Source: an uncultured Chloroflexia bacterium
GTDB taxonomy: Bacteria > Chloroflexota > Dehalococcoidia > SZUA-161
DNA: 64,000 bases
NCBI GenBank assembly: GCA_963847595.1
Contig: CAWKAJ010000001.1
Coordinates: 601,258-665,257 of the forward strand
Direction: 5' to 3'
Position 1 is the first letter of the stretch. The number at the start of each line of letters is the position of its first letter. Both the position numbers and the translations under genes were made by a program. Below the pieces are notes generated by a model. That model ran no database searches. It was not told where the DNA came from and worked only from the letters and a program-made list of their open reading frames with translations. Of this stretch, positions 9,774 to 64,000 are shown piece after piece.

Positions 9774-10442
9774 CTATATTTCCTCTTTTGTCCTCGGAGG
9801 TAAGGGGGCAATTAACCATCCGCGTTTTGGATAGGCAAACCCGACGCTGTCTCTACTAAAAAGCATAGCGCGTCTGTACTGTGGTGAATGATTACACCAT
9901 TTCTTCAAATATGACTTTACTTGCCTATATCGGTTCCTTTTGGGTGTTCTATTCTCCCTTAAATCATCGTCGACATATTCCAAGAAGTAGAGAATCGGTT
10001 TTTGCAGGTTCTTGGATTTATAGACGTCTTTCAAGTCGCGAATATCCTTTTCGGTAAAGGTCAATGGGACAACTTGCCCACCACCACGTTTGATTTGGAC
10101 AGCGGCTAGGAGCGGTAATTCCTTTGCAAGTTCTCCTCTAGGGCGGTCCCAGTTGGACTGGGCCTCACTTGCTTTGCTCGGTGCCCACAGAACCAAGTCA
10201 ATGGGGCTTCTAGTCACGCAAGGCCATTCCAGCCGAGCCAAACATATCGTCGAATCTACCCCTGAGTTGGCTGCAAGTGACTCTCTCGTCCATGCCATTA
10301 AGCATGCAGCTATTTCGTGTTCATGGTAAAAATTAAAGGCATCATCACCTTGAAACTGAAATGCAAGCCGCTTCACGCTATTCTCAAATGCTCTCAGTAC
10401 TTCTAAAGACGTTGAATCCCTGTCTGCATAAAACTTTGACAT
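9774..10442 (-). CDS. hypothetical protein, possible PD-(D/E)xK nuclease-like fold
   Basis: 222 aa. The spacing HEHEI ... SPIDLVLW ... AAVQIKRGG fits the E / hhhD / (E/Q)xK pattern. GC is lower than in the core genes. Nothing else is recognisable. Confidence 0.4.
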   Translation of the reverse strand: MSKFYADRDSTSLEVLRAFENSVKRLAFQFQGDDAFNFYHEHEIAACLMAWTRESLAANSGVDSTICLARLEWPCVTRSPIDLVLWAPSKASEAQSNWDRPRGELAKELPLLAAVQIKRGGGQVVPLTFTEKDIRDLKDVYKSKNLQKPILYFLEYVDDDLRENRTPKRNRYRQVKSYLKKWCNHSPQYRRAMLFSRDSVGFAYPKRGWLIAPLPPRTKEEI

Positions 10443-48844: not shown

Positions 48845-49834
48845 CTAATCATGTATTTCTTCCAGAACTAGAGCATTCTTTTGGGGATTGACTTTGTATT
48901 TGATGAGCCTCACCGTTTTTTCTTCAATCGCTTTTCTTTTCCTCCAATATTCGAGCACTCTTTCATCAAATCCAAATCCTACTAGGATGCTCTGAACCAT
49001 TTCAGAATCTCCATCGGCGAGTTTTCTGACTATCCAGTTTTCATATTTTATGATTTGATTAAGGTCTTCTTCGGAAATTTTGCCCGCTTTTAGCTCCATG
49101 CATGTGAACTTATGCAGAATATCAACAGAGTCAATTGTAGTTACATGTGTAAGGAATATATCCATTACCTTGTTAAACGAGGTGGGCACATAATTCAAAT
49201 AGTCTCTATAATCACCAATGAGTTCTTTCAATTTACCGTTTGAAAAGGCCCGCATAAACCAGGCATTAAGACATCCTTCGTATCTTAAGTGACCACTTTT
49301 ATCGGATTCAAGACTCAGAGGTAAGGGTACCTTTTTCGTCAGCAAATAAGGTTGTGGTATGATATCTGGCTTTGCGAAAATAGGATTATTCCTAAGTAAT
49401 AGTCGGATTAACTCTTTTCCCTCATCAGTGGTGATCGGATTGTGTGATTTTTTCGTAACGGTTCCCAAATCAAAGGTCCATATCTTGCCTTTATCTTTTA
49501 AATCCAAAATATCAGCCATCGCAATGGGGGCCGAAAATCTTCTGATTGTTGGTTCAAAGCATACTCTGAACGGGTAAAGTTGGTCTGGATCATCCCAAAC
49601 AGGTGTTGTATCATAGAATGAGTCAGTGGTAATCCTCCACAATCCATAGATGCCTCTATTCTTTACATAGAAGAATACAAAGTCCCCAATCTTGATTCCG
49701 GCAAATCCAGAAATAACTTCTGAATTCGTTTGCTCCGATTTGGCTGAGCCGTGAAATTCAATACCACCATAGACTCCTTTCCTTAAGCAAACGCCAAAGT
49801 TGCTTTCCCCAGCGAGAAAAATGTGATACCCCAT
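48845..49834 (-). CDS. PUA/EVE-like N-terminal domain protein with possible PD-(D/E)xK nuclease C-terminal domain
   Basis: N-terminus MGYHIFLAGESNFGVCLRKGVYGG...IKIGDFVFFYVKNRGIYGLWRITTD resembles EVE/PUA-like domains. The C-terminus contains D...VDILHKFTCMELKAGK, which is (D)-x-ELK-like. The gene lies in an AT-rich islet. The domain calls are by eye only. Confidence 0.5.
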   Translation of the reverse strand: MGYHIFLAGESNFGVCLRKGVYGGIEFHGSAKSEQTNSEVISGFAGIKIGDFVFFYVKNRGIYGLWRITTDSFYDTTPVWDDPDQLYPFRVCFEPTIRRFSAPIAMADILDLKDKGKIWTFDLGTVTKKSHNPITTDEGKELIRLLLRNNPIFAKPDIIPQPYLLTKKVPLPLSLESDKSGHLRYEGCLNAWFMRAFSNGKLKELIGDYRDYLNYVPTSFNKVMDIFLTHVTTIDSVDILHKFTCMELKAGKISEEDLNQIIKYENWIVRKLADGDSEMVQSILVGFGFDERVLEYWRKRKAIEEKTVRLIKYKVNPQKNALVLEEIHD

Positions 49835-50313: not shown

Positions 50314-50694
50314 GTGCGTAGAAGCAGTAGATTCGTGAAAGAGCGAGACAATTACCCGCTGAGCCAACGGGAGCGAGAAGCACTTATTCTCGCCGCTCGA
50401 GGTATGACTAATAAGGACATCGCTGAACGCTTGTGTACCAGCACAAGCACGGTAAAAGCTATCATACATCAGGCATGCGTTAAGCTCGGAGCACGCAGCA
50501 GAGGGCAGGCGATCGTCATAGTCTTGAAACGGGGCATCGTGCGTACGGACGAGATGTATACCCTGGATGAACTGGCAGATATGCTCTGCTCCCTCGGCTC
50601 ACAAACGATAGAGTCCATAGCTGAAATCGTGAAGCAAAAGTTCGAACAGGTTCGACTGCCTCTGGATGTCGAATCATCCCCTTCCCGACGATAA
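50314..50694 (+). CDS. LuxR/GerE-type HTH transcriptional regulator (small)
   Basis: LSQREREALILAARGMTNKDIAERLCTSTSTVKAIIHQACVKLGA is a clear LuxR-type HTH. GTG start per track. The true start is uncertain. Confidence 0.7.
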   Translation: MRRSSRFVKERDNYPLSQREREALILAARGMTNKDIAERLCTSTSTVKAIIHQACVKLGARSRGQAIVIVLKRGIVRTDEMYTLDELADMLCSLGSQTIESIAEIVKQKFEQVRLPLDVESSPSRR

Positions 50695-53967: not shown

Positions 53968-55910
53968 AGGAGCACTACGGATACGCCGGGAAAATCCTGA
54001 GGGTGGACCTGTCCTCAAAGAAGATAACCACCGTGCCCACCGCACAGTATTCCGATAGGTTCCTCGGGGGCAGAGGTATCGCCGCCAAGATTTACTGGGA
54101 CGAAGTGCCGGCTAAAGTCAAGGCCTTCGACCCCGAGAACCGCTTAATATTCGTCACCGGGCCGCTGGCCGGAATCGGCGGGCTGTCCGGCTCAAGGTGG
54201 CAGGTTTGCGGCAAGGCACCCGCCATGTATCCGGAGGAGTTCTCCTACTGCAACCTCGGCGGCAGATGGGGCTGGCAGCTCAAGTGCGCCGGGTACGATG
54301 CCCTCGTCATTGCGGGAAAATCTGAAAAGCCCGTCTATCTGTTTATCCAGGACGACAAAGTGGAGATAAGGGACGCTTCCGCACTCTGGGGCAAGAGCAC
54401 AGTCGAGACTCGCGAAACCCTGAAGAGCCAGTTCGGTAGCAGCTTCGCAGTGGTGGCCTGCGGCCCTGCGGGGGAGAACCTTGTATCATACGCCATCGTT
54501 CTCGCCGACAACGACGCCAGTGGCTCCAGCGGCTTCGGCGCAGTCATGGGTTCCAAGAACCTCAAGGCCATCGCGGTGAGAGGCCAGGGAAAAGTGAACG
54601 CAGCCAATCCTGAGAGGCTGACTGAGGTAAAGAAGAACGTCCGCCAGTTGTTGTGGAAGGGGCCGGATTATCAAAAAGAGATTGGCAAACCCGAGGCCCA
54701 TATCGAGGTCGTATCCGGTCAGAAAACGAAGCTCGACCTTTGCCTGGGCTGCGCCGGATTCGATGGAAGGATAACTATAGAATCCCGGGACGGCACAAAG
54801 AAGGGCAAGTCCCTCTGCGGCTCCTCGCTGTTCTACCTCGATAAGGTCAACAAGTACTACCCTGAACCGACGGAGACTACTTTTTATGTCAACAGGCTCT
54901 GCGATGAGTACGGCGTTGATGCTCTCGCCATCGAATCGATGATGAAATGGCTCTCGAGGTGCCGACATACAGGAATCCTGACGGACGAAAATACCGGCAT
55001 CCCCCTGTCCAAGCTGGGAAGCTGGGAGTACATGGAAGCGCTGGTCAGGAAAATGGCGCTCCGCGAAGGCTTCGGCGACGTCCTGGCCCTGGGCATACAG
55101 AGGGCAGCCGCAACTCTGGGCCCTAAAGCCGAGGAACTGGTCGGCGACTATATATCGAAGGCCGGTCACCTGCTCAGCTATTGCCCGCGCACCTTCCCGG
55201 CTCACGGCCTGCTCTACGCGATGGAGCCGAGACAGGCTGTGAACCAGTTGCACGAGATGGGACTTGTCCTGTTCCAGTGGGTCAACTGGGCCAATAATCC
55301 CGAAAACTCCTATCTCTCCAGTGACGTATTCCACAAGATAGCTGCCAGGTTCTGGGGCAGCGAGCTTGCGGCTGATTTCTCGACGTACGATGGCAAGGCT
55401 CTGGCAGCGGCCGCCATTCAGGACCGCGAGTACGCCAAGGAATGCCTCATCCTCTGCGACTTCACCTGGCCGGTAACGCATACTATGGAAGGAGACCACA
55501 TAGGCGATCCCTCCATAGACAGCAAGATGCTTGCCGCAGTCACCGGACGCGATATAGACGAACGCGGACTCTACCGCATCGGGGAAAGAGTGTTCAACAT
55601 GCAGCGCGCCATACACATCAGGGAAGGACACAAAGGCAGGGAAAGCGACATGATTCCCGAAGCCCTTTTCACTACCCCGCTCAAGGGCAACGAGATGAAT
55701 CCCAAAGCCCAGGCCCCGGGCAAAGACGGTGCGATTACCTCGAGGGTCGGCGTGGTGGTGGACAGAGCGGAGTTCGAGCGGATGAAGAGCGAGTATTATC
55801 AGCTCAGGGGATGGGACGTGGCCAGCGGCCTGCAAACCGTAAAGAGGCTGAAGGAACTCGACCTCGCCGAAGTCGCTCATGACCTGGGGCGCATGGGCCT
55901 CGCCCTGTAG
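53964..55910 (+). CDS. aldehyde:ferredoxin oxidoreductase family enzyme, paralog 3 (start overlaps FeS-subunit stop)
   Basis: MKEHYGYAGKILRVDLSSKKITTV...DRFLGGRGIAAKIYWDEV. 648 aa. Confidence 0.9.
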   Translation: MKEHYGYAGKILRVDLSSKKITTVPTAQYSDRFLGGRGIAAKIYWDEVPAKVKAFDPENRLIFVTGPLAGIGGLSGSRWQVCGKAPAMYPEEFSYCNLGGRWGWQLKCAGYDALVIAGKSEKPVYLFIQDDKVEIRDASALWGKSTVETRETLKSQFGSSFAVVACGPAGENLVSYAIVLADNDASGSSGFGAVMGSKNLKAIAVRGQGKVNAANPERLTEVKKNVRQLLWKGPDYQKEIGKPEAHIEVVSGQKTKLDLCLGCAGFDGRITIESRDGTKKGKSLCGSSLFYLDKVNKYYPEPTETTFYVNRLCDEYGVDALAIESMMKWLSRCRHTGILTDENTGIPLSKLGSWEYMEALVRKMALREGFGDVLALGIQRAAATLGPKAEELVGDYISKAGHLLSYCPRTFPAHGLLYAMEPRQAVNQLHEMGLVLFQWVNWANNPENSYLSSDVFHKIAARFWGSELAADFSTYDGKALAAAAIQDREYAKECLILCDFTWPVTHTMEGDHIGDPSIDSKMLAAVTGRDIDERGLYRIGERVFNMQRAIHIREGHKGRESDMIPEALFTTPLKGNEMNPKAQAPGKDGAITSRVGVVVDRAEFERMKSEYYQLRGWDVASGLQTVKRLKELDLAEVAHDLGRMGLAL

Positions 55911-55934
55911 TAGCTTTAGACCAAGGAGGTATTT

Positions 55935-57140
55935 ATGCCCAAGCAACCTCTATCAGACGTTCGAGTGCTCGACCTGACCTGGCACATAGCCGGGCCTGCC
56001 TGCACCAAGTTCTTTGCCGACTACGGTGCTGACGTCATCAAAATTGAAAGGCCGGATGGGGGAGATCCGTCCCGGAGCCTGGGCCCCTTCTACAAGGACG
56101 ACCCTCATCCCGAGAAGAGCGGCCTGTTCCTGTTCCTCAACACCAACAAGCGCAGCATCACCCTGAACCTGAAAACCCATACGGGGCAGAAGATACTCAA
56201 AGAGCTTGTCAAGGATGTGGATATCCTGGTCGAGAACTTCAGCCCCCGTGTCATGCCCGGCCTCGGCCTGGACTACGAGACCCTGGAGAAGCTTAACCCC
56301 GAACTAGTCATGACCTCCATCTCCAACTTCGGACAGACCGGCCCGTATCGCGATTTCAAAGCGTCGGAAGCCATCATCTATGGCATGGGCGGGGCCATGT
56401 GCAGCACCGGAGTCGGTGACTGCGAGCCTGTCAAGAAGGGCATGAACGTCATCCAGCACCAGGGAGGGTACATGGCGGCTACGGCTACCATGATTGCATT
56501 TTATGCTGCCAGGATGCAGGGAGTTGGAGAGCATATTGACGTCTCGCTGATGGAGACCCAGATGGCCGCCATCGATAGAAGGATGAGCGAACTCCTGGCC
56601 TACGAGTATAACAAAGAGCTGACCCCCCGGATGGACATAGCGGGGATGCTTCAGTATCCCTACGGCATCTTCCCCTGCAAAGACGGCTACGTCGATGTCG
56701 CGGGCGGCTTTATGTTCCTGGACCGTATCGAAAGGGTGCTCAAGATGGCCCTCATGGAGACCTACGGCGGGGCGAATCAGTTCGACGAGGCACGCAGAGA
56801 GGAGTTTCTGGGCACTATCTGGTACCCCTGGCTGATGGAGCGAAGCCGGAAAGAGATTGTTGAGGTCTGCCAGGAAGGGCGCGTTTTGAGCGCTCCCATC
56901 AATACCACCGAAGACCTCGTGGCTGACCCCCAGTTCCGTGAGAGGGGCTTCTGGGCCGAGGCCGAGCACCCCGTGGTGGGCAAGCTGACCTATCCCGGCA
57001 GGCCCGCCATATGCTCGGAGTTGCCCTGGAAGATAAGGCATCCCGCGCCGCTGCTGGGTCAGCACAACGCAGAGGTCTATACCTCCCTGGGGTACTCGAA
57101 GGGGGACCTGGTGAAACTGAGGGAAGGGGGTATCATCTAA
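55935..57140 (+). CDS. family III CoA-transferase (CaiB/BaiF-like)
   Basis: MPKQPLSDVRVLDLTWHIAGPACTKFFADYGADVIKIERP. RBS AAGGAGG. Confidence 0.9.
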   Translation: MPKQPLSDVRVLDLTWHIAGPACTKFFADYGADVIKIERPDGGDPSRSLGPFYKDDPHPEKSGLFLFLNTNKRSITLNLKTHTGQKILKELVKDVDILVENFSPRVMPGLGLDYETLEKLNPELVMTSISNFGQTGPYRDFKASEAIIYGMGGAMCSTGVGDCEPVKKGMNVIQHQGGYMAATATMIAFYAARMQGVGEHIDVSLMETQMAAIDRRMSELLAYEYNKELTPRMDIAGMLQYPYGIFPCKDGYVDVAGGFMFLDRIERVLKMALMETYGGANQFDEARREEFLGTIWYPWLMERSRKEIVEVCQEGRVLSAPINTTEDLVADPQFRERGFWAEAEHPVVGKLTYPGRPAICSELPWKIRHPAPLLGQHNAEVYTSLGYSKGDLVKLREGGII

Positions 57141-57141
57141 G

Positions 57142-58473
57142 ATGGCTAAGCTACCGCTGGAAGGCGTAAGGGTTGTGGGCATGACCCAGATGTGGGCCGG
57201 CCCCATCGTCGAGATGCACCTGGCCGACTGGGGTGCCGAGATAATCAAGGTCGAGTCCATTCACTATCTCGCCGTCGGCACCAGGGGCCCCGCTCCCAGG
57301 CATCCCAAGTTCGCTGTTGATTTCGTCAAGGGCGGCTATGCCGCCTATCTCAAAGAGGGTTACGACGAGACCAAATGCAGGCCCTGGAATCTGAGCTGCA
57401 TGTTCAATGTGCATGGCCGCAACAAATATTCCTGCACCGTGGACTCCGTCAAGCCCGAGGGCAAGGAAATAATCAAGCGCCTGATACAGGTGAGCGACGT
57501 TTTCATCGAGAACAGCCAGCCCGCCGTCATGGAGGACTTCGGCCTCACCTACGACGTCATCAGCGCCTGGAACCCGAATATCATCATGCTCTCCATGTCC
57601 GGCTTCGGCCAGACCGGCCCCTACAAGTACTTTCGCTCTCTCGGCGCCCATCAGGATGCCTTCCTGGGGCATACCTATCTCAGGGGCTATGCGGACCGGG
57701 ACGTGACGGCAAACTCGGCAATCTACCATTGCGACGAAGCTTCAGGAACAATCGGTGCCTTCATGGTTGTTATGGCGCTGCACCAGCGCAACAAGACAGG
57801 CAAGGGCATGTTCATCGACATGGCGCAGACCGAGGCCACCATGATCCAACTGGGTGAGGCCATCATGGACTACACCATGAACAGTCGCATCACCGAGAGG
57901 ACCGGGAACCGCGACCTCTACGGCGGCATCCAGGGCTGCTACCGCTGCCGCGGCGAGGACAGATGGGTAACCATCGCCATCCGCACCGATGAGGAATGGC
58001 AGGGCTTCTGCCGTGCCCTGGGCAATCCCGGGTGGACCAAGGACGACAGGTTCGCCGATAGCCTGAGCAGGTGGCGTAATCAGGAAGAGTTGGACAAACA
58101 CATCGGCGAATGGACCGGCCGGCATGAAGCCTTCAAGGTCATGAACACCCTGCAGAAAGAAGGCGTAGCTGCCGGCCCGGTAGAGCACCCGGACGATGCC
58201 TACAACGACCCGCAGATGAAAGCGCGGGGCTTTTTCGAAACGGTAACTCAGGCTGAATGCGGGACACACAGATACCCCGGCCTGGCATTCAGGATGTCCA
58301 AGGCGCCCAACCATTTCCGGCTTCCTCCCGTCCGTCTGGGCGAGCACAACGAATACGTCTATAAGAAGCTTCTCGGCTTCTCCGACGCAGAGTATGCTCG
58401 CCTGGAAAAAGAGGGGCACATAGGGATGGACCTGGTGCCCGATATCGTAATCGGCAAATACAAGCCCGAATAA
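57142..58473 (+). CDS. family III CoA-transferase (CaiB/BaiF-like), 443 aa with insertion
   Basis: MAKLPLEGVRVVGMTQMWAGPIVEMHLADWGAEIIKVES. Starts 2 nt after the previous stop. Confidence 0.88.
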   Translation: MAKLPLEGVRVVGMTQMWAGPIVEMHLADWGAEIIKVESIHYLAVGTRGPAPRHPKFAVDFVKGGYAAYLKEGYDETKCRPWNLSCMFNVHGRNKYSCTVDSVKPEGKEIIKRLIQVSDVFIENSQPAVMEDFGLTYDVISAWNPNIIMLSMSGFGQTGPYKYFRSLGAHQDAFLGHTYLRGYADRDVTANSAIYHCDEASGTIGAFMVVMALHQRNKTGKGMFIDMAQTEATMIQLGEAIMDYTMNSRITERTGNRDLYGGIQGCYRCRGEDRWVTIAIRTDEEWQGFCRALGNPGWTKDDRFADSLSRWRNQEELDKHIGEWTGRHEAFKVMNTLQKEGVAAGPVEHPDDAYNDPQMKARGFFETVTQAECGTHRYPGLAFRMSKAPNHFRLPPVRLGEHNEYVYKKLLGFSDAEYARLEKEGHIGMDLVPDIVIGKYKPE

Positions 58474-59546
58474 TGTAGGGGCGACCGGCTGGTCGCCCTC
58501 TCCCAAATCCCCCCTTTTGCAAAGGGGGCAAGGGGGATTTTAGCCTCCTCTCGCCCCTGGAGGGAGAGATAAGAGTGAGAGGGATAATCCGTTCGCCCTG
58601 AATCCTTCTGTGGTAGGACAGGCTCCCCAGCCTGTCCCTGACCTGATCAGGGAGCACGAATCCAGGTGCCCTTCTCTTGTCATTGCGAGTCCTTCTCTGG
58701 AAGGACGAAGCAATCTCACCGCGCCTGTCTTGAGCCCCTGACAACGTACAACATGCCATTCCTGCGCAAGCAGGAATCCAGGTGCCCCCATATGTCATTG
58801 CGAGGAGTCCTTCAAGGAAGGACGACGCGGCAATCTCACCGGCCCCGCGTGACGCCCTAACGGGTAGGTTGGAGCACCCGCTCCAACCAGGTAGGGGCAC
58901 AGTGCACTGTGCCCTTCTGTATGTCATTGCGAGTCCGCCTCGGGCGGACGAAGCAATCTCCTCGTCATCATTCCGTAGGGGCAGACCCATGTGTCTGCCC
59001 GAATCTGAGAATAGGGTCGGTGCTCCGCAACCGACCCTTTCGTAGGGGCAATTCATGAATTGCCCCTTTAATGTCATTCCTGCGCAAGCAGGAATCCAGG
59101 CGCCCCTAATTTTCCCTCCCCTGGAGAGAGAGAAAAGCCTGTCCTGAGCCCCTGACAACGTACAACATATCATTCCTGCCCTGAGCAGGAATCCAGGCGC
59201 GCCACGAACCAATCCCCCCTTTTGCAAACTTGTCCCTAACTCGTTCAGGGAGGGGGCAAGGGGGATTTTAGCCTCCTCTCGCCCCTGGAGGGAGGGGGAT
59301 AATCCGTTCGCCCTTAGCCCTGTCCTGAGCCCCGTCGAAGGACTGTCGAAGGGCTATCCTTAATTGGGTAGCTTGGAGCACCCGCTCCAACCTCGTAGGG
59401 GCACAAGGCATTGTGCCCAAAAACGTAGGGGCGAGGGCCCTCGCCCCGGGATCCGAAGAGCGACTTCTTTACTGCTGATCGGGGTATCGCAGCATGTTAC
59501 TGATCTCCCGTTAAAATAACCTTTCGCATTAAATCCGACTAGTTCG
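58474..59546. repeat. about 1.07 kb ORF-free array of more than 20 short hairpin-repeat modules (H1, H3, H4, H5, H6, H7 families)
   Basis: Examples: gtaggggcGACCGGCTGGTCgccctc, tgtcattgcgag..gcaatctc (x3), cattcctgcgcaagcaggaatccagg (x3), gtaggggcACAGTGCACTGTgccc, gtaggggcAGACCCATGTGTCTgccc, gtaggggcAATTCATGAATTgcccct, ggtaggttggagcacccgctccaacc (x2), cccccctTTTGCAAA...gggggg (x2). The track's 312-aa ORF here is repeat-derived. Confidence 0.85.
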
Positions 59547-60998
59547 CTACGCTGCGCTGCAATATTCGCTATATCTTACCAGGTGAGCAAGTATTTTAGC
59601 TGATTCTTCCGGGTCAGGGTAGAGATTTAGATGGCTCTGCTTCAATGTCAGAGGAACCGTGCCCTGAGTTTCGAAACGCGCTGCTCCAACGGTGAAAAGG
59701 ACGGGCTTACGGTGTTTTGCCATAAGCTCAATAGTCGTCTTTATGTTCTCAAGCTCAGGTTCCTCCATTTGCATTCCCACCTCTTGAGTAGCCTTTTTCA
59801 TCAACGGTGGTGCCCACGTAGCGTAGCCGGAGGTCATCGCGACACCGCCGATAACCAATATGGCGTCGAAATTCTCATCCTCTATCATTGGCCAGAGAGC
59901 CTGGTAGCTGACGAAGTCCCCGGCAGGATCGACTGGGTTTCCTCCGGACCACCTTCGCGACATCATAGACTCCAATTTCTCCATAGTAGCTGCTGACAGA
60001 GGGGGCAGTTCTAAACCCTCTTTCCTCAAGGCGTCTGCGGCGATGACTGCCATCCCACCGCTCATAGACAGCACTCCTACCCTTCTCCCCCGGGGCAGCG
60101 ACTGACCCAGCAAAGCCACAGCGACATCTATCATTTCGTGAAGCTTCTCCACCCGGATCACACCGCACTGCTTGAACGCAGAATCGAGCGTTGCATCCGA
60201 TCCTGCCAGAGCAGAGGAGTGAGACCGCGCTGCCCTGCTCCCGACATCCGTACGCCCCACCTTCATAATGACCATGGGCTTCTTTTTTGTTATTTCCCTT
60301 GCCAGTTCAAGGAAACGCTTGCCTTCTCTGAAGCCTTCTACGTAACCCAGGACAACCTCGGTTTTCTCATCCTGAGCCAGATACTCCAGATAGTCTTCGA
60401 AGCGCAGGTCGCCCTCGTTTCCGCTGCTGATAAACTTGCTAAACCCGACTCCCATCTGCAGCCCGTAATCGAGTATTGCCTGGCCCGAGTTCCCGCTTTG
60501 AGAGATGAGCGCCACATGACCTCTCTCGATAGGGGGCATGAAAGGCACAGTGCAGAATTCTGCGTACGGGTTACAAAACCCCAGGCAGTTCGGACCTATG
60601 AAGCGTATACCGCCTCGCCGGGCGATTTCAACCGCCTCCCGTTGTATTCTTGCGCCTTCTTCACCTGTCTCGGCAAGACCGCCGGAGATAATGACAGCGC
60701 TCTTGACTCCCTTTCTAACGCAGTCTTCCATAGCAGCGGGGACATCCTGAAACGGGACCGTTATCACAGCAAAATCCACTGGCCCGGGCACTTCAACCAC
60801 GCTCATATAAGCTTTCATCCCCATCACTTCGGCTTCCCTGTTGTTGACCGCGTAAATCTCTCGCCCCTGCTTATGGCTCAGTACGCGGCTTAGCACGTTG
60901 TATCCCCACTTACCGAAGTTGTTAGAAGCCCCGATGACCGCCACTGCCCTAGGATTGAACAAATTATCCAACTGCTCTTTTAGACTCATGTTGCTCAT
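59547..60998 (-). CDS. NDP-forming acyl-CoA synthetase alpha-domain protein (CoA-binding + succinyl-CoA-ligase-like domains)
   Basis: NPRAVAVIGASNNFGKWGYNVLSRVL...RFIGPNCLGF pattern of ADP-forming acetyl-CoA synthetase and related enzymes. The start is set at MSNMSLKEQ (RBS GGGAGAGG). The track ORF begins at 61052. Confidence 0.85.
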   Translation of the reverse strand: MSNMSLKEQLDNLFNPRAVAVIGASNNFGKWGYNVLSRVLSHKQGREIYAVNNREAEVMGMKAYMSVVEVPGPVDFAVITVPFQDVPAAMEDCVRKGVKSAVIISGGLAETGEEGARIQREAVEIARRGGIRFIGPNCLGFCNPYAEFCTVPFMPPIERGHVALISQSGNSGQAILDYGLQMGVGFSKFISSGNEGDLRFEDYLEYLAQDEKTEVVLGYVEGFREGKRFLELAREITKKKPMVIMKVGRTDVGSRAARSHSSALAGSDATLDSAFKQCGVIRVEKLHEMIDVAVALLGQSLPRGRRVGVLSMSGGMAVIAADALRKEGLELPPLSAATMEKLESMMSRRWSGGNPVDPAGDFVSYQALWPMIEDENFDAILVIGGVAMTSGYATWAPPLMKKATQEVGMQMEEPELENIKTTIELMAKHRKPVLFTVGAARFETQGTVPLTLKQSHLNLYPDPEESAKILAHLVRYSEYCSAA

Positions 60999-61095
60999 GC
61001 TACCTCTCCCACCCTGGGTTGACGTTTCCCCCGAAAACAGTAGCACCGCCATTTAGAGTCCTCCGCTATAATAAAACGAAAGAGGAGGGCTCATC

Positions 61096-61362
61096 ATGGT
61101 ACGCAAGAGGTACACCGAGGAACAGATCATCGCCGTGCTCAGGGAGGCAGAGGCCGGAGCTAAAGTAACCGATCTCTGCCGTAAATATGGGATGAGCGAT
61201 GCCACCTATTACAACTGGAAAGCCAGGTATGCCGGACTGACCGTCAGTGAACTGAAAAGGTTGAAAGCCTTAGAAGAGGAAAACCGGCGTCTCAAGCAAA
61301 TCGTGGGCGAGCAAGCACTGGACATCAGAGCGCTCAAGGATCTGCTATCAAAAAACTTCTAA
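61096..61362 (+). CDS. IS3-family transposase OrfA (HTH)
   Basis: MVRKRYTEEQIIAVLREAEAGAKVTDLCRKYGMSDATYYNWKARYAG...LKRLKALEEENRRLKQIV (leucine zipper). Slippery heptamer A AAA AAC at 61350-61356 in the OrfA frame. Confidence 0.9.
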   Translation: MVRKRYTEEQIIAVLREAEAGAKVTDLCRKYGMSDATYYNWKARYAGLTVSELKRLKALEEENRRLKQIVGEQALDIRALKDLLSKNF

Positions 61363-62183
61363 AGCCCGGGGCCAAACGCCTGGCAGTTTCCCATGCCAGG
61401 GAGAGTCTTGGGCTGAGCGAAAGGAAAGCCTGCCTGCTGGTCAATATTTCGGCTTCGGTATATCGCTATAGGCCGAAATCGGATAGTGATGTTGCCCTGC
61501 GTCAGCGTTTACGGGAGCTGGCAGGACAGAGAAAACGGTTTGGCAGTCCCCGGCTCCACATTTTGCTGAGAAGGGAGGGGCTGGTGATTAATCACAAGCG
61601 GACAGAGAGGATCTATCATGAAGAGGGATTGGCGCTGAGGAGAAAGAGGCGTAGGAAAGGTGCTGCCGGGTTGAGGGTAATCATGCCATCACCGCAGAGG
61701 CCAAACCAGCGCTGGTCCATGGATTTTGTTACTGACAGCATCGTCACCGGGCGGCGTTTTCGCGCCCTTGCCATCGTGGATGACTACTCCCGGGAATGTC
61801 CCGTCATCGAGGTGGACACTTCACTGGGTGGTGCCAGAGTGGTGAGTGTGCTGGAAAGGCTAGCTGAAACGAGGGGATTGCCTAACGTAATTACCACGGA
61901 CAATGGGCCGGAATTCGCAGGGCGGGCACTCGATGAATGGGCATACTGTAAGGGCGTGAAGCTGAACTTCATCCGGCCGGGAAAGCCAATTGAGAATGCC
62001 TATGCCGAGAGCTTCATCGGCAGGCTCAGGGACGAGTGTTTGAACGAGAACTGGTTTATGAACCTGAAGCATGCCCGGGACATCATCGAAGACTGGAGGA
62101 GGGATTACAACGAGGTCAGGCCACACAGCTCATTGCACGGTAGGGCTCCCATGGAGTATGCTGAAACAGCGGCTGGGCTCTAA
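61353..62183 (+). CDS. IS3-family transposase OrfB (integrase/DDE rve core), expressed as an OrfAB fusion by -1 frameshift
   Basis: The -1 frame reads KLLKPGAKRLAVSHARESLGLSERKACLLVNISASVYRYRPK... It continues into the listed ORF (61563-62183), which has DDE-integrase hallmarks (WSMDFVTD, ITTDNGPEF, ENAYAESFIGRLRDECLN). No internal stops are seen. Confidence 0.85.
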   Translation, partial: KLLKPGAKRLAVSHARESLGLSERKACLLVNISASVYRYRPKSDSDVALRQRLRELAGQRKRFGSPRLHILLRREGLVINHKRTERIYHEEGLALRRKRRRKGAAGLRVIMPSPQRPNQRWSMDFVTDSIVTGRRFRALAIVDDYSRECPVIEVDTSLGGARVVSVLERLAETRGLPNVITTDNGPEFAGRALDEWAYCKGVKLNFIRPGKPIENAYAESFIGRLRDECLNENWFMNLKHARDIIEDWRRDYNEVRPHSSLHGRAPMEYAETAAGL

Positions 62184-62212
62184 TAGCCGGTGATACTAAT
62201 ACCGGGGGAAGG

Positions 62213-63106
62213 TCATACTTCCTGATAACTATCTAGATAATCGATGAATTGTATCTCATATTTTGGTGGTGGGTCATTTTGTCTCAATCTAGTGGTGGTA
62301 TGTAGAAGAGAAAGTACACTAAAATCATTGGTATTTAAGGAGCAACCGATTATCCGTAATATATCACATTTCAGGCAAGATCTTGCTTTCCCCCAGATAG
62401 CGTTAAACGGGTAATAGTCATTCCTTTTGATTACACCTGGAGGAACCCAGAGTATATGATCTCTATCGTCGTTCATATTGATAAGATTTTCATTAATTCT
62501 TACTGGATTTGTATTTTCCCAATTAAAAGAACCGTGTAATTTACATAGGGCTGGAATACCTGTATTATTCGTAATTTCACCGTTTTCTGGTATTACTTCA
62601 AACGGGATATTTAGGCTCGCGTAATTCTCAAACATAGCCTTTTCTATAAAGTTGTCGTAGTTTAAAGTAAGAATTGCACACAATTCTTCGTTAAAATCCG
62701 GTAACGAATACATATCAAGCAGTGCAGTTATTAGGTTTGGAGATTGTTTTTCATTCCTTAGCCCATTTTTAATCCTATTATTTATCGATTTTCTAAAGTA
62801 ATTTCGTAATTTGTTAGTACGCTCCTTGTCTTTAAAAGTGCCGGAGGATTCATAAAGGGTTATTATCTCTTCAATATCAACGTTTCGGTGTATTTTTCGT
62901 TCATCTAACCATGTAATATTGCTCAAGTCTCTCAATGAAACATCTTCTTCATTTTTACAAGCTAATAAGACATCTTCAGCTATATCGGCCATTAATATTC
63001 CATCATTTGTTGGATCGAGATGTTTAATGACAGCATGACTCGCACCAGCGCCCAAGAGATATACAACTTTCTTCTTTTCGTCAGGCATCTTTTCTCCAAA
63101 AAACAA
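62213..63106 (-). CDS. SIR2_2-family (ThsA/DSR-like sirtuin) domain protein, AT-rich
   Basis: VVYLLGAGASHA (G-A-G-x-S), ILTLNYDNFIE (xNYD..hE) and LCKLHGS (K-h-H-G) match the three signature motifs of defence-type SIR2 domains. The stop codon (TGA, 62215..62213) is formed by the first bases of the IS3 right terminus. Confidence 0.75.
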   Translation of the reverse strand: MFFGEKMPDEKKKVVYLLGAGASHAVIKHLDPTNDGILMADIAEDVLLACKNEEDVSLRDLSNITWLDERKIHRNVDIEEIITLYESSGTFKDKERTNKLRNYFRKSINNRIKNGLRNEKQSPNLITALLDMYSLPDFNEELCAILTLNYDNFIEKAMFENYASLNIPFEVIPENGEITNNTGIPALCKLHGSFNWENTNPVRINENLINMNDDRDHILWVPPGVIKRNDYYPFNAIWGKARSCLKCDILRIIGCSLNTNDFSVLSLLHTTTRLRQNDPPPKYEIQFIDYLDSYQEV

Positions 63107-64000
63107 TGCTTTCTCGGGACGGACTTCTCATATAGTCTCTCATTTGTTGAGAGCTATTTCCCCTATATCTTACAGCCCATATATTTTCCGGACTTAAGCC
63201 CACTTGTAATCCAATTTCAGATAATATTTCATCGACAAGGATGTCAACTCCTGCAAATCGAACATTACTAATGACCATAGCCACTTTCCCGCCATTTCTT
63301 AGGCACCTGTGTATCTCAGAAAGAGATAAATACATATCTTCAAAATAACCTTCTAACATCTTGATCACTTGCGGATTATTAGCACCATTCCTTTTGACTT
63401 GGGCGATTAAGGACTCAAGTGTATCTGGTATTTGATAGCCGATAGCTTCATATTTTTCCCTTGCCTCGACATGTGACCGGATCGTTTCATAACGTATCCT
63501 TTTAAGTTGATCGTTATCTGATATAAAATCGAACATCATCTCTAGAGAATATATTCTAGTATAATCATGCCGGTTGGGGTATGGAGGAGAAGTGATAACA
63601 GCATCATATTTTCTTTGAGTAGGAAGTTTTCTCGCATCGCCTATCTTGGCCAATGAACTTACATTTTTGCCTTTCTCGTATTTGAATTCAAGTACATCTT
63701 GAATCATGGACTCTACTTTGTTTAAAAACTCACCCATTATCTCATTTGGGTTCACCTGACGATTTATTATGCGAAGAAACCCCCCATCCTTCGAGGTATT
63801 GCTTGCAGACTCAATAATACTTAGGAATCCAAGGTTGAAAAAAGCCCTAATCTTAGGATTTTCAATATTGTCTTCGATTCTAGATTTTATCGACAACAAT
63901 TCTTTTGCTACGTCTGTGCTAAAAGCTTTTTTAACTATAGGGATATTAGGTAGAACTCTATTATCATTACTTATTACATCTTTTGTTTTTAGCACTTCAA
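63081..64000 (-). CDS. DNA amino-methyltransferase (N4-cytosine/N6-adenine type, SPPY motif IV); N-terminus lies beyond the window end
   Basis: DAVITSPPYPNRHDY is a classic motif IV. CLRNGGKVAMVIS is downstream. The reading frame is still open at 64000, so the ORF is 5'-truncated by the window. Its 3' end overlaps the SIR2 gene start by 26 nt. Confidence 0.7.
   Translation of the reverse strand, partial: EVLKTKDVISNDNRVLPNIPIVKKAFSTDVAKELLSIKSRIEDNIENPKIRAFFNLGFLSIIESASNTSKDGGFLRIINRQVNPNEIMGEFLNKVESMIQDVLEFKYEKGKNVSSLAKIGDARKLPTQRKYDAVITSPPYPNRHDYTRIYSLEMMFDFISDNDQLKRIRYETIRSHVEAREKYEAIGYQIPDTLESLIAQVKRNGANNPQVIKMLEGYFEDMYLSLSEIHRCLRNGGKVAMVISNVRFAGVDILVDEILSEIGLQVGLSPENIWAVRYRGNSSQQMRDYMRSPSRESIVFWRKDA

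What the first reader, a model, noticed from the sequence alone, without database searches (positions are those of the whole stretch)
62213..64000. Methyltransferase + SIR2_2 gene pair on an AT-rich island at the window edge: candidate unnamed defence system
The two minus-strand genes are translationally coupled by a 26-nt overlap. Upstream is an amino-MTase with motif IV DAVITSPPYPN. Downstream is a 297-aa protein carrying the three hallmark motifs of defence-associated SIR2 domains (GAGxS, xNYDxxhE, KxHG). Those motifs are seen in ThsA, DSR1/2, SIR2-HerA and pAgo-associated SIR2. The island is far lower in GC than the core genome and sits immediately beside an IS3 element. An MTase partnered with a SIR2 NADase-type effector, in place of a restriction endonuclease, is not a configuration I can assign to a named system. 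The 5' part of the MTase and anything further upstream (a specificity or sensor gene?) lies outside the window.
Basis: partly seen in the sequence, partly recalled or inferred. Interest (0 to 1): 0.8.

Follow-up and report, generated by a model that had tools for sequence, protein, structure and literature searches.

The report
IS3-truncated methylase–SIR2–DUF262 defence cassette remnant
The methyltransferase and SIR2 genes are real, but they are the broken remains of a widespread three-gene cassette that appears undescribed (DNA methyltransferase, SIR2 enzyme, ParB-like DUF262 DNA sensor); here an insertion sequence has cut off the end of the SIR2 gene and the sensor gene is gone.

Summary
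**Observation.** It mostly holds.
- An AT-rich island (GC 0.36 against 0.54) carries an amino-MTase (SPPY motif) and a SIR2_2 gene (Pfam E 6e-10; GAGAS, NYD and KLHGS present), next to an IS3 element.
- The real gene overlap is 8 nt (ATG at 63088), not 26.
- The "297-aa protein" is not a complete protein. All full-length homologues are 355-386 aa. The window copy stops at residue 291, and its stop codon is the terminal TCA of the IS3 inverted repeat.

**Relatives.**
- In 80 of 82 related loci from bacteria and archaea, the SIR2 gene is followed directly by a ParB-DUF262/ParBDB gene. That gene is NsnA/SspE/BrxU-like, has an invariant DGxQR motif and has no nuclease domain.
- A DNA MTase lies within about 2.6 kb in at least 71 of the 82 loci, and about a dozen also carry a classical restriction enzyme gene.
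- A syntenic close relative (L003, core 94% identical) carries the intact MTase-SIR2-DUF262 operon at the same chromosomal site.

**Interpretation.**
- SIR2 and DUF262 co-evolve with each other (Spearman 0.75) but hardly with the MTase (0.14).
- The likely mechanism is R-M-like: the methylase marks self DNA, the DUF262 NTPase senses DNA, and SIR2 depletes NAD+. This is inferred, not shown.
- I found no named system or paper that matches this gene set.
- The window copy is probably inactive as a defence system, apart from a possibly active orphan methylase.

The parts
63081..64000 (-). 3' 305 codons of a type II amino-DNA methyltransferase. It is alpha-class in motif order (motif I, then a target-recognition region, then motif IV SPPY) and is cut by the window end. 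The complete gene is 418 aa in the identical Logan contig L001 (296-1552).
   Evidence: ORF list. PADLOC MTase_II PDLC03224 E 3e-53 for the window part and 8e-85 for the full protein. Pfam N6_N4_Mtase 52 bits for the full protein. L001 is identical to the window over 1788 nt. 30% identity over the full length to an MTase that sits next to a BsoBI-type REase.
63573..63605 (-). MTase catalytic motif IV, DAVITSPPYPN.
   Evidence: Coordinates computed. From general knowledge, SPPY is typical of N4-cytosine or N6-adenine amino-MTases. The base modified was not determined.
62216..63088 (-). 5' 291 codons of a SIR2_2 gene (probable NADase effector). The catalytic motifs are intact but the C-terminal 85-95 residues are missing. 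The start ATG at 63088 overlaps the MTase stop by 8 nt.
62213..62215 (-). Stop codon TGA of the truncated SIR2 ORF, supplied by the last three bases (TCA) of the IS3 right inverted repeat.
   Evidence: Logan contig L001 breaks 8 nt into the IS end.
61020..62215 (+). IS3-family insertion sequence, 1196 bp. orfA is 61096-61362. orfB is in the -1 frame and runs to 62183. The imperfect terminal inverted repeats are TGACGTTTCCCCCG... (from 61020) and ...CGGGGGAAGGTCA (to 62215). There is no target-site duplication (GGT against TAC).
   Evidence: Pfam HTH_Tnp_1 E 3.5e-23 and rve/rve_3 E 1e-28. Alignment of the two ends. Sequence. GC is 0.543, like the host.

Best explanation
Window 62213-64000 holds a degraded copy of a horizontally acquired, AT-rich three-gene cassette. 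Its gene order is type II amino-DNA-methyltransferase, then SIR2_2 protein, then ParB-DUF262/ParBDB protein.

**The window copy.**
- An IS3 element, or a rearrangement mediated by it, removed the last 85-95 codons of SIR2 and the whole DUF262 gene.
- What remains is an intact and probably active orphan methyltransferase.
- The SIR2 stub is very likely non-functional as a defence effector.

**How the intact cassette most likely works (inferred).**
- It behaves like a restriction-modification system.
- The methyltransferase marks host DNA.
- The DUF262 NTPase with its DNA-binding ParBDB domain monitors DNA. Its relatives SspE, BrxU/GmrSD and DndI read DNA modification.
- On meeting foreign or unmarked DNA, the sensor switches on the SIR2 partner. 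SIR2 then hydrolyses NAD+ and arrests the infected cell.
- SIR2 plus DUF262 is a co-inherited two-gene module that plugs into different methyltransferases or complete type II R-M pairs.

**Shown:** the gene content, the truncation, the conservation of the triad, the co-evolution of SIR2 and DUF262, the conserved catalytic and NTP-binding motifs, and the fold similarities.

**Inferred:** NADase activity, the sensing of methylation state, the direction of activation, and the defence phenotype.
For: **Truncation**
- Homologue lengths, pairwise alignment and profile coverage 1-280 of 368 all show a missing C-terminus.
- The stop codon lies inside the IS3 inverted repeat.
- No DUF262 gene or SIR2 3' fragment is found anywhere in the 64-kb window.
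- The missing part is conserved and confidently modelled. N347, F349, W352 and L353 are invariant, and pLDDT is about 90 over residues 290-360.

**Synteny**
- L003 shares 94% nt identity with the window's core genes.
- L003 has the intact MTase-SIR2-DUF262 operon at the same site.

**Conservation of the triad**
- A DUF262 gene follows SIR2 directly in 80 of 82 independent loci.
- A window-type MTase lies within 2.6 kb in 69 of 82 loci. A D12-class MTase in L076 and MTase fragments with an XcyI-like REase in L082 add two more.

**Module behaviour**
- Spearman correlation of pairwise identities is 0.75 for SIR2 against DUF262, but 0.14 for SIR2 against MTase.

**SIR2**
- G13, G15, N143, Y144 and K183-L-H185-G-S are invariant.
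- The best fold matches are NADase SIR2 proteins of SIR2-HerA/Nezha systems.

**DUF262 partner**
- QRExxxW and DGxQR are invariant in 72 of 72 sequences.
- PADLOC NsnA scores E 6e-19 over the full length.
- Only GmrSD_N is found in Pfam, with no DUF1524.

**Island character**
- GC is 0.33-0.39 against 0.46-0.56 for the flanks in L002, L003, L005 and the window.
- The flanks are housekeeping genes.
Against: - No experiment exists for any member of this family. NADase activity and any defence phenotype are extrapolated from distant SIR2 relatives (14-18% identity).
- The weak coupling between the MTase and SIR2-DUF262 sequences is hard to square with a sensor that reads one specific methylated site. 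So is the variety of partner MTase families and positions.
- I could not read the source contig beyond 64000, nor the rest of the source genome.
  - The DUF262 gene and the SIR2 3' end could therefore have been moved elsewhere by an IS-mediated inversion rather than deleted.
  - The absence of a target-site duplication fits either event.
- A C-terminally truncated SIR2 that keeps all catalytic motifs could retain some activity.
Confidence: 0.72

Rival explanations
1. One reading: a complete, functional two-gene MTase + SIR2 defence system. Any extra component would lie upstream of the MTase, beyond the window edge.
For: The two genes overlap and are co-oriented. All SIR2 catalytic motifs are present. 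The ORF has no internal stops or frameshifts.
Against: - SIR2 lacks 23% of the conserved family length, and its stop codon comes from IS3.
- Among the 82 related loci, SIR2 lacks an adjacent DUF262 partner only at a contig end (L040) and in L078.
- Upstream of the MTase there are only 295 non-coding bases in L001 and housekeeping acyl-CoA dehydrogenase genes in syntenic L003.
Confidence: 0.05
2. SIR2-DUF262 is an autonomous two-gene module. It would be a modification-dependent type IV-like system or an abortive-infection system, with the GmrSD HNH nuclease replaced by SIR2. On this view it merely clusters with MTase and R-M genes in small defence islets, or guards an R-M system as PrrC guards EcoprrI. 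The MTase would not be its self-marking component.
For: - SIR2-DUF262 identities are nearly independent of MTase identity (Spearman 0.14).
- MTases of several families sit upstream, downstream, convergent or divergent.
- Some loci already hold a complete type II or type IIL R-M.
- The nearest structural relatives of the sensor (BrxU/GmrSD, SspE, DndI) read modified DNA.
- Two cassettes in one Dehalogenimonas MAG share an 85%-identical MTase, but their SIR2 proteins are only 35% identical and their DUF262 proteins 43%.
Against: - The commonest arrangement (35 of 82 loci) is MTase-SIR2-DUF262 with small or overlapping gene junctions and no REase. It sits as a three-gene island between housekeeping genes. 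That pattern argues for a functional dependence on the MTase.
- An MTase is present in about 95% of the loci that can be tested.
Confidence: 0.2
3. The SIR2-like protein acts on DNA rather than on free NAD+. It might ADP-ribosylate DNA or protein. Or, together with the ParB-like DUF262 protein, it might form the cleaving 'R' component of an unusual restriction enzyme.
For: - SIR2 occupies the position of the REase next to the MTase.
- Some ParB-like domains have nuclease or nicking activity (general knowledge).
- A PADLOC/REBASE-derived REase_II model (PDLC03418) weakly matches the DUF262 domain (E 1e-5).
Against: - No nuclease motif or domain is detected in either protein.
- About a dozen loci keep a classical REase as well. 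A second cleaving enzyme there would be less needed.
Confidence: 0.08

Closest known systems
SIR2-HerA (Nezha) anti-phage system
   Different: No HerA ATPase gene is adjacent in any of the loci. The partner is a ParB-DUF262 protein, and a DNA methyltransferase is part of the locus. Sequence identity is only 16-18%, and PADLOC SIR2 models match weakly and partially.
SspABCD-SspE, Dnd-DndI, and GmrSD/BrxU (DUF262-based modification-sensing defences)
   Same: The partner protein has the same ParB-DUF262 NTPase with the DGxQR and QRxxxW motifs, followed by a helical DNA-binding domain (PMC12065111). As in Ssp and Dnd, a DNA-modifying enzyme is encoded beside the DUF262 sensor.
   Different: The DUF1524 HNH nuclease is absent, and a separate SIR2 protein takes the effector role. 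The modification is a methyl group from a type II amino-MTase, not phosphorothioate or a glucosyl-hmC reader arrangement.
Menshen (NsnABC)
   Same: The DUF262 partner's best PADLOC hit is NsnA, over nearly its full length (E 6e-19). NsnA is the proposed DNA sensor (ParB-DUF262 + ParBDB) of Menshen (PMC12065111).
   Different: No NsnB ABC-ATPase gene or NsnC nuclease gene is present. SIR2 and an MTase are there instead.
Classical type II restriction-modification systems (for example BsoBI, XhoI, MvaI/BcnI)
   Same: The MTase is a type II amino-MTase of the kind paired with BsoBI-like REases (30% identity). About a dozen family loci contain such REases between the MTase and SIR2. The cassette is a small AT-rich mobile unit.
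   Different: In the window lineage and in the 35 MTase-SIR2-DUF262 loci no REase gene is operon-linked. A SIR2 gene and a DUF262 gene sit where the REase would be.
PrrC-EcoprrI (an abortive-infection effector embedded in an R-M locus)
   Same: This is a conceptual parallel for the loci where SIR2-DUF262 follows a complete R-M pair. A suicide-type effector is genetically attached to an R-M system (general knowledge; also cited in bioRxiv 10.1101/2024.01.29.577857).
   Different: The protein families are unrelated. PrrC is an anticodon nuclease. No evidence here shows that SIR2-DUF262 monitors the R-M enzyme.

Membership tests
SIR2_2 (PF13289), defence-type SIR2 domain | Profile score above Pfam's gathering threshold | tested here: met
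   39.8 bits against a cut-off of 24.5, E 6.2e-10. P0002 scores 35.2 bits.
SIR2_2 (PF13289), defence-type SIR2 domain | Rossmann GxGxS loop and the catalytic Asn and His (NYD, KxHG) | tested here: met
   GAGAS, LNYDNFIE and KLHGSFNW are present in the window copy. They are invariant in 22 family members and align to the same motifs of PsSIR2 and KomC.
SIR2_2 (PF13289), defence-type SIR2 domain | SIR2 fold | tested here: met
SIR2_2 (PF13289), defence-type SIR2 domain | Complete protein as in the rest of its own subfamily | tested here: not met
   The window copy is 291 aa against 355-386 aa for homologues. It covers profile positions 1-280 of 368, and its stop codon comes from the IS3 end.
SIR2_2 (PF13289), defence-type SIR2 domain | NAD+ hydrolase activity | not testable with these tools
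   Needs biochemistry.
Type II restriction-modification system | DNA methyltransferase with AdoMet-binding motif I and catalytic motif IV | tested here: met
   DPFCGGGTT (motif I) and SPPY are present in the 418-aa protein. Pfam N6_N4_Mtase 52 bits; PADLOC MTase_II E 8e-85.
Type II restriction-modification system | Cognate restriction endonuclease gene adjacent | tested here: not met
   None in the window, L001, L002, L003 or L005. REases are present only in about a dozen distant family loci.
SIR2-HerA (Nezha) | Adjacent HerA-type ATPase/helicase gene | tested here: not met
   The gene after SIR2 is DUF262 in 80 of 82 loci. No HerA is in the operon. The DUF87/HerA-like gene in L068 is on the opposite strand, 1.4 kb away.
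Thoeris (ThsA/ThsB) | SLOG domain fused to SIR2, and a TIR-domain ThsB gene | tested here: not met
Short pAgo-associated SIR2 (SPARSA) and DSR1/DSR2 | Adjacent or fused APAZ/pAgo; or a single protein of more than 1000 aa with SIR2 at the N-terminus | tested here: not met
   PADLOC Aga_SIR2 hits are weak and partial (E 7e-8 or worse). No Argonaute neighbour is found. Among the 150 best family representatives listed, lengths are at most 458 aa.
Menshen (NsnABC) | NsnA-like ParB-DUF262+ParBDB gene followed by an NsnB ABC-ATPase and an NsnC effector | tested here: not met
   An NsnA-like protein is present in relatives (E 6e-19), but no conserved gene follows it. The gene is absent from the window altogether.
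GmrSD / BrxU / SspE (type IV-like DUF262-DUF1524 enzymes) | DUF262 NTPase domain with the DGQQR motif | tested here: met
GmrSD / BrxU / SspE (type IV-like DUF262-DUF1524 enzymes) | C-terminal DUF1524 His-Me/HNH nuclease | tested here: not met
   No DUF1524 hit. The protein is about 350-430 aa against 560-594 aa for SspE, BrxU and DndI.
IS3 family insertion sequence | orfA (HTH) plus orfB (DDE rve) in the -1 frame; TG...CA imperfect terminal inverted repeats | tested here: met
IS3 family insertion sequence | Short direct target-site duplication flanking a simple insertion | tested here: not met
   The flanks are GGT and TAC. This fits a deletion or rearrangement after insertion.

The most novel reading that the evidence does not exclude
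MTase-SIR2-DUF262 would be a distinct, so far unnamed class of restriction-modification-like immunity, widespread in uncultured bacteria and archaea. A ParB-like NTPase reads the methylation state, or the presence, of DNA. Instead of cutting the DNA it triggers NAD+ depletion through a dedicated SIR2. The SIR2-DUF262 pair would be a portable effector-sensor module that can be bolted onto unrelated methyltransferases or complete type II R-M systems as a second, abortive layer.
Probability: 0.4. Interest if true: 0.75.

Novelty: new variant of a known kind. Interest (0 to 1): 0.5.

Why it matters
If the intact cassette works as inferred, it links two large branches of prokaryotic immunity. One is epigenetic self-marking, as in restriction-modification. 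The other is NAD+-depleting abortive infection. A ParB/DUF262 NTPase would sit between them as the switch.

It would also show that one sensor-effector pair can be exchanged among methyltransferases of different specificity. That raises a testable question about what the DUF262 sensor actually reads.

The family is not rare. It has 186 clusters at 50% identity with E of 1e-30 or better. It occurs in Chloroflexota, Ignavibacteria/Bacteroidota, Acidobacteriota, Nitrospirota, CPR bacteria, and Bathyarchaeia, DPANN and haloarchaea. It is almost confined to uncultured lineages, which may explain why it has escaped screens based on model organisms.

For the window itself the practical message is the opposite. 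This copy is a broken relic and should be annotated as an orphan methyltransferase plus a truncated SIR2 pseudogene next to IS3.

Tried and rejected
**Extending the contig past 64000**
- The exact-protein look-up of SIR2 returned only a 2.4-kb Logan contig (L001), not the 836-kb NCBI contig.
- Look-ups all found nothing on record: IS3 orfA, the NCBI 344-aa MTase call P0382, and the neighbouring CoA-ligase-like gene with two alternative starts.
- The source genome was not among the GTDB species representatives returned.
- Deletion of the DUF262 gene and its relocation therefore stay unresolved.

**Looking for the lost pieces in the window**
- A sensitive HMM search of all six frames found no DUF262 gene and no SIR2 C-terminal fragment.

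**Looking for the window genome's DUF262 partner in the protein database**
- All close homologues of the L003 partner pair with already known SIR2 relatives.
- None comes from an 836-kb contig.
- This is suggestive only.

**Annotated collections**
- There was no tblastn hit in 72,556 plasmids.
- There was no relative in 2.9 million viral contigs.

**Named systems**
- PADLOC gave only generic MTase_II, weak SIR2/Aga_SIR2, and NsnA/PD-T4-2_A domain-level hits.
- NCBIfam gave nothing.
- Dazbog, PD-T4-2, MADS, Thoeris, DSR, SPARSA, Menshen and SIR2-HerA were each considered and rejected on gene content.

**Literature**
- Eight full-text searches combined SIR2 or sirtuin with DUF262, GmrSD, ParB, methyltransferase or restriction-modification.
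- None found a paper describing this gene set.
- Neither the Menshen/DUF262 survey (PMC12065111) nor the 'embedded defences' preprint mentions a SIR2 partner.
- The library lacks most subscription-journal papers, so this is not proof of novelty.

**Other points**
- The automatic repeat finder missed the IS3 left inverted repeat. It was recovered by aligning the two ends directly.
- Split SIR2 or DUF262 ORFs occur in about ten related loci. I did not take them as evidence of frequent decay. Most come from MAG series (OZ and MFD accessions) that I assumed, without checking, to be long-read assemblies, in which frameshift errors are common.
Full report
**1. What is in the window**

Two minus-strand ORFs occupy 62213-64000.

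*The methyltransferase.*
- The upstream ORF (63081 to the window edge) is an amino-DNA-methyltransferase. Motif IV, DAVITSPPYPN, lies at 63573-63605.
- The window fragment falls below Pfam thresholds.
- It matches a PADLOC type II MTase model at E 3e-53.
- The complete 418-aa protein comes from a Logan contig (L001) that is identical to the window over 1788 nt. It passes Pfam N6_N4_Mtase at 52 bits and scores E 8e-85 against the same PADLOC model.
- Motif I (DPFCGGGTT) precedes motif IV by about 170 residues. That order is the alpha-class layout.

*The SIR2 gene.*
- The downstream ORF is a SIR2_2 protein: Pfam 39.8 bits against a 24.5 cut-off.
- It carries GAGAS, LNYDNFIE and KLHGSFNW.

*The island and the IS.*
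- The island has GC 0.358 against 0.537 for the rest of the window.
- It abuts an IS3-family element with HTH_Tnp_1 and rve domains.

**2. Two corrections**

*The overlap.*
- The 26-nt overlap assumes a TTG start.
- The closest homologue begins MPDEKKKVVYLLGAGAS, which corresponds to the ATG at 63088, five bases after a GGAG.
- Independent gene calls in L001, L003 and L005 all give the 8-nt overlap ATGCCTGA.

*The SIR2 ORF is truncated.*
- Every full-length homologue among the 120 best hits is 355-386 aa.
- The window protein is 291 aa. It aligns to residues 1-296 of the 385-aa P0002 at 67% identity.
- It covers positions 1-280 of the 368-position family profile.
- Its TGA stop (62213-62215) is the reverse complement of the final TCA of the IS3 right inverted repeat. 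The unique 27-mer TGACCTTCCCCCGGTATTAGTATCACC sits at 62189-62215.
- Aligning the two IS ends gives imperfect inverted repeats starting at 61020 and ending at 62215, so the element is 1196 bp.
- The flanking triplets differ (GGT and TAC). There is no target-site duplication, which points to a deletion or rearrangement rather than a simple insertion.
- The lost segment is conserved. N347, F349, W352 and L353 are invariant.
- The lost segment is also confidently modelled as a strand plus five helices.

**3. The missing third gene**

- Gene neighbourhoods of the closest homologues all read MTase, then SIR2_2, then GmrSD_N (DUF262), co-oriented and with tight junctions.
  - These are L002 (Chloroflexi RBG_13_46_14), L003 (Logan SRR18214653) and L005 (a Dehalogenimonas MAG).
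- L003 is syntenic with the window.
  - Its CoA-transferase and aldehyde-oxidoreductase genes match window 54258-58473 at 94% nt identity.
  - Its MTase-SIR2 region matches 62244-64000.
  - A close relative therefore has the intact three-gene operon at the same chromosomal site.
- In the window lineage the segment from the SIR2 3' end onward is replaced by IS3, a CoA-ligase-like gene and a repeat-rich spacer.
- A sensitive six-frame HMM search finds no DUF262 gene and no SIR2 C-terminal fragment anywhere in the 64 kb.
- Upstream of the MTase there are only 295 non-coding bases in L001, and housekeeping acyl-CoA dehydrogenase genes in L003. Nothing relevant is hidden beyond the window edge on that side.

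**4. How general the cassette is**

A scan of GTDB species representatives returned 80 loci from Chloroflexota, Ignavibacteria/Bacteroidota, Acidobacteriota, Nitrospirota, Omnitrophota, Patescibacteria, Proteobacteria and archaea (Bathyarchaeia, Halobacteriales, DPANN, Methanobacteriaceae).

Over 82 independent loci:
- A DUF262 gene follows SIR2 directly in 80. One exception is a contig end.
- An MTase detectable with a window-type HMM lies within 2.6 kb in 69. Their positions are:

| MTase position | Loci |
|---|---|
| Directly upstream | 35 |
| One gene upstream | 13 |
| After DUF262, same strand | 7 |
| Convergent | 12 |
| Divergent | 2 |

- Seven contigs are too short to judge.
- Of the six loci with no MTase detected, L076 has a D12/Dam-class MTase, and L082 has an XcyI/BsoBI-like REase with MTase fragments.

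Where a gene intervenes between the MTase and SIR2, it was in most cases examined a classical type II REase. Those found are BsoBI-like, XhoI-like and MvaI/BcnI-like (in L057), with EcoO109I and XcyI-like REases among the adjacent ORFs. The intervening ORFs in L070 and L015 have no Pfam match, and L027, L028, L036 and L069 were not checked for one. Two loci have an MmeI/type-ISP-like fused R-M enzyme directly upstream of SIR2.

Other properties of the family:
- It comprises 186 representatives at E of 1e-30 or better in a library clustered at 50% identity. None of the 150 best listed is a fusion protein; the longest is 458 aa.
- The cassette is AT-rich relative to its host wherever this was checked.
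- It is typically flanked by housekeeping genes.
- It was not found in plasmid or viral collections.

**5. Module structure**

- Across 60 loci with all three genes, pairwise identities of SIR2 and DUF262 correlate strongly (Spearman 0.75). SIR2 against MTase gives 0.14.
- Two cassettes in the same Dehalogenimonas MAG (L005 and L006) have 85%-identical MTases, but only 35% identity for SIR2 and 43% for DUF262.
- The window and L003 show the same pattern at fine scale.
  - The central 540 nt of the MTase are 99-100% identical.
  - The MTase flanks are 87-93% identical.
  - Identity falls through the MTase 3' end to 63-83% in SIR2.
  - This gives a recombination mosaic in which the SIR2 module, and presumably DUF262 with it, has been exchanged.
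- SIR2+DUF262 is therefore a co-inherited two-gene unit that is shuffled among methyltransferases and R-M pairs.

**6. What the proteins look like**

*SIR2.*
- Next come classical sirtuins, KomC, ThsA and Avs5 SIR2.
- The profile aligns the NYD and KLHGS motifs with those of PsSIR2 and KomC.
- G13, G15, N143, Y144 and H185 are invariant.
- An active NAD+-consuming enzyme is therefore likely but not shown.

*The partner.*
- It has only a GmrSD_N Pfam domain.
- It matches PADLOC NsnA, the Menshen sensor, over its full length at E 6e-19.
- It keeps QRExxxW and DGxQR in 72 of 72 sequences.
- It has no DUF1524 or other nuclease domain.
- According to PMC12065111 and PMC10952713, ParB-DUF262 plus the following helical ParBDB domain act as NTP-dependent DNA or modification sensors in SspE, GmrSD/BrxU and, by prediction, NsnA.

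**7. Most likely mechanism (inference)**

*For the intact cassette.*
- The MTase marks host DNA.
- The DUF262/ParBDB NTPase binds DNA and discriminates marked from unmarked or foreign DNA.
- SIR2, encoded immediately upstream and co-evolving with the sensor, is switched on and depletes NAD+. The result is abortive infection.
- In four-gene loci this would be a second layer behind a cutting REase.

*What supports it.*
- The operon logic, in which an REase-less MTase needs a reason to be maintained next to a toxic effector.
- The properties of the relatives.

*What is not explained.*
- It is unclear how one sensor lineage can serve MTases of different families and specificities.
- This keeps alive the rival that SIR2-DUF262 is autonomous, either type IV-like or a guard of R-M, and only clusters with methylases.
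- I put about 0.5 on the R-M-like model for the family and about 0.2 on the autonomous-module rival.

*For the window copy.*
- I put about 0.9 on 'truncated relic of the three-gene cassette'.
- I put about 0.8 on 'no longer a working defence system'. The MTase is intact and may persist as an orphan methylase.

**8. Comparison with known systems and novelty**

- The set fails the defining gene content of every named system considered.

| System | Feature missing here |
|---|---|
| SIR2-HerA | No HerA |
| Thoeris | No SLOG or TIR |
| SPARSA and DSR | No pAgo; not a giant single protein |
| Menshen | No NsnB or NsnC |
| GmrSD/BrxU/SspE | No DUF1524 |
| Canonical type II R-M | No REase in this lineage |

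- PADLOC-DB v2 has no model set that covers it.
- Eight literature searches found no description of a SIR2-DUF262 pairing with or without a methylase.
- The library lacks many subscription-journal papers, so prior description cannot be excluded.
- All parts are known building blocks. I rate the family as a new variant of known kinds: an R-M-like system with a DUF262 sensor and a SIR2 effector.

**9. Verdict**

- The interest lies in the family, which is best studied from intact loci such as L003, L002 or L005, not in this window's remnant.
- Overall interest is 0.5.

Noticed in passing
window 48845-49834 (-), with 50314-50694 (+): A second AT-rich patch (48-50 kb, GC 0.40-0.44) holds a 329-aa ORF. 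It has an N-terminal EVE (PUA-like) domain (Pfam E 3e-6) and an uncharacterised C-terminal half. It could be a modified-base reader or a type IV-like restriction gene. A LuxR/GerE-type HTH gene lies next to it.
   Followed up: partly
window 58480-59546: A non-coding stretch of about 1 kb is built from interspersed short repeats. There are seven families of 23-53 nt, each with 2-3 copies at 61-100% identity to the reference copy (80-100% for all but one copy). Related copies occur at window ~16106, ~24009 and ~48306, and in L003 (2823-2862, 6801-6978, 7848-7975). These look like genome-wide REP/MITE-like elements. The spurious long ORFs listed there are artefacts of the repeats.
   Followed up: partly
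window 9774-10442 (-): A 222-aa orphan ORF with no Pfam match sits at the edge of a third AT-rich patch (8-10 kb, GC 0.42-0.43).
   Followed up: no
window 62216-64000 compared with L003 3218-5116: Mosaic identity between two close relatives. The core genes are 94% identical. The central 540 nt of the MTase are 99-100% identical. SIR2 is only 63-83% identical at the nucleotide level (65% at the protein level). This points to recent recombination that exchanged the SIR2 module, and probably DUF262 with it, while keeping the MTase target-recognition region.
   Followed up: partly
L005/L010 and L006 (Dehalogenimonas sp. TCA1, two contigs): One genome carries two complete MTase-SIR2-DUF262 cassettes. 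Their MTases are 85% identical, but their SIR2 proteins are 35% identical and their DUF262 proteins 43%. One cassette sits next to a type III-like MTase/ResIII pair and a TnsA-like gene.
   Followed up: partly
L001 213-245 (upstream of the MTase start; outside the window): The sequence TGACTTCCCCCAAATGTAG... resembles the IS3 terminal repeat TGACCTTCCCCCGG. It may be a solo inverted-repeat remnant, which would mean IS activity on both sides of the island. The Logan contig also ends 295 nt upstream of the MTase.
   Followed up: no
window 61001-61052 and the IS3 left end at 61020: IS3 sits 21 bp upstream of the likely true start (ATG 60998, preceded by GGGAGAGG) of the CoA-ligase-like gene 59547-60998. 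The 501-aa ORF that starts at 61052 borrows its first 11 codons (33 nt, 61020-61052) from the IS end. The insertion may therefore also affect that gene's promoter.
   Followed up: partly
L013, L017, L036, L043, L057, L061, L063, L068, L069, L045: In about ten related loci, SIR2 or DUF262 is split or shortened while the MTase is usually intact. Most are from MAG series (OZ and MFD accessions) that I assumed, without checking, to be long-read assemblies, so sequencing frameshifts cannot be told apart from real decay.
   Followed up: no
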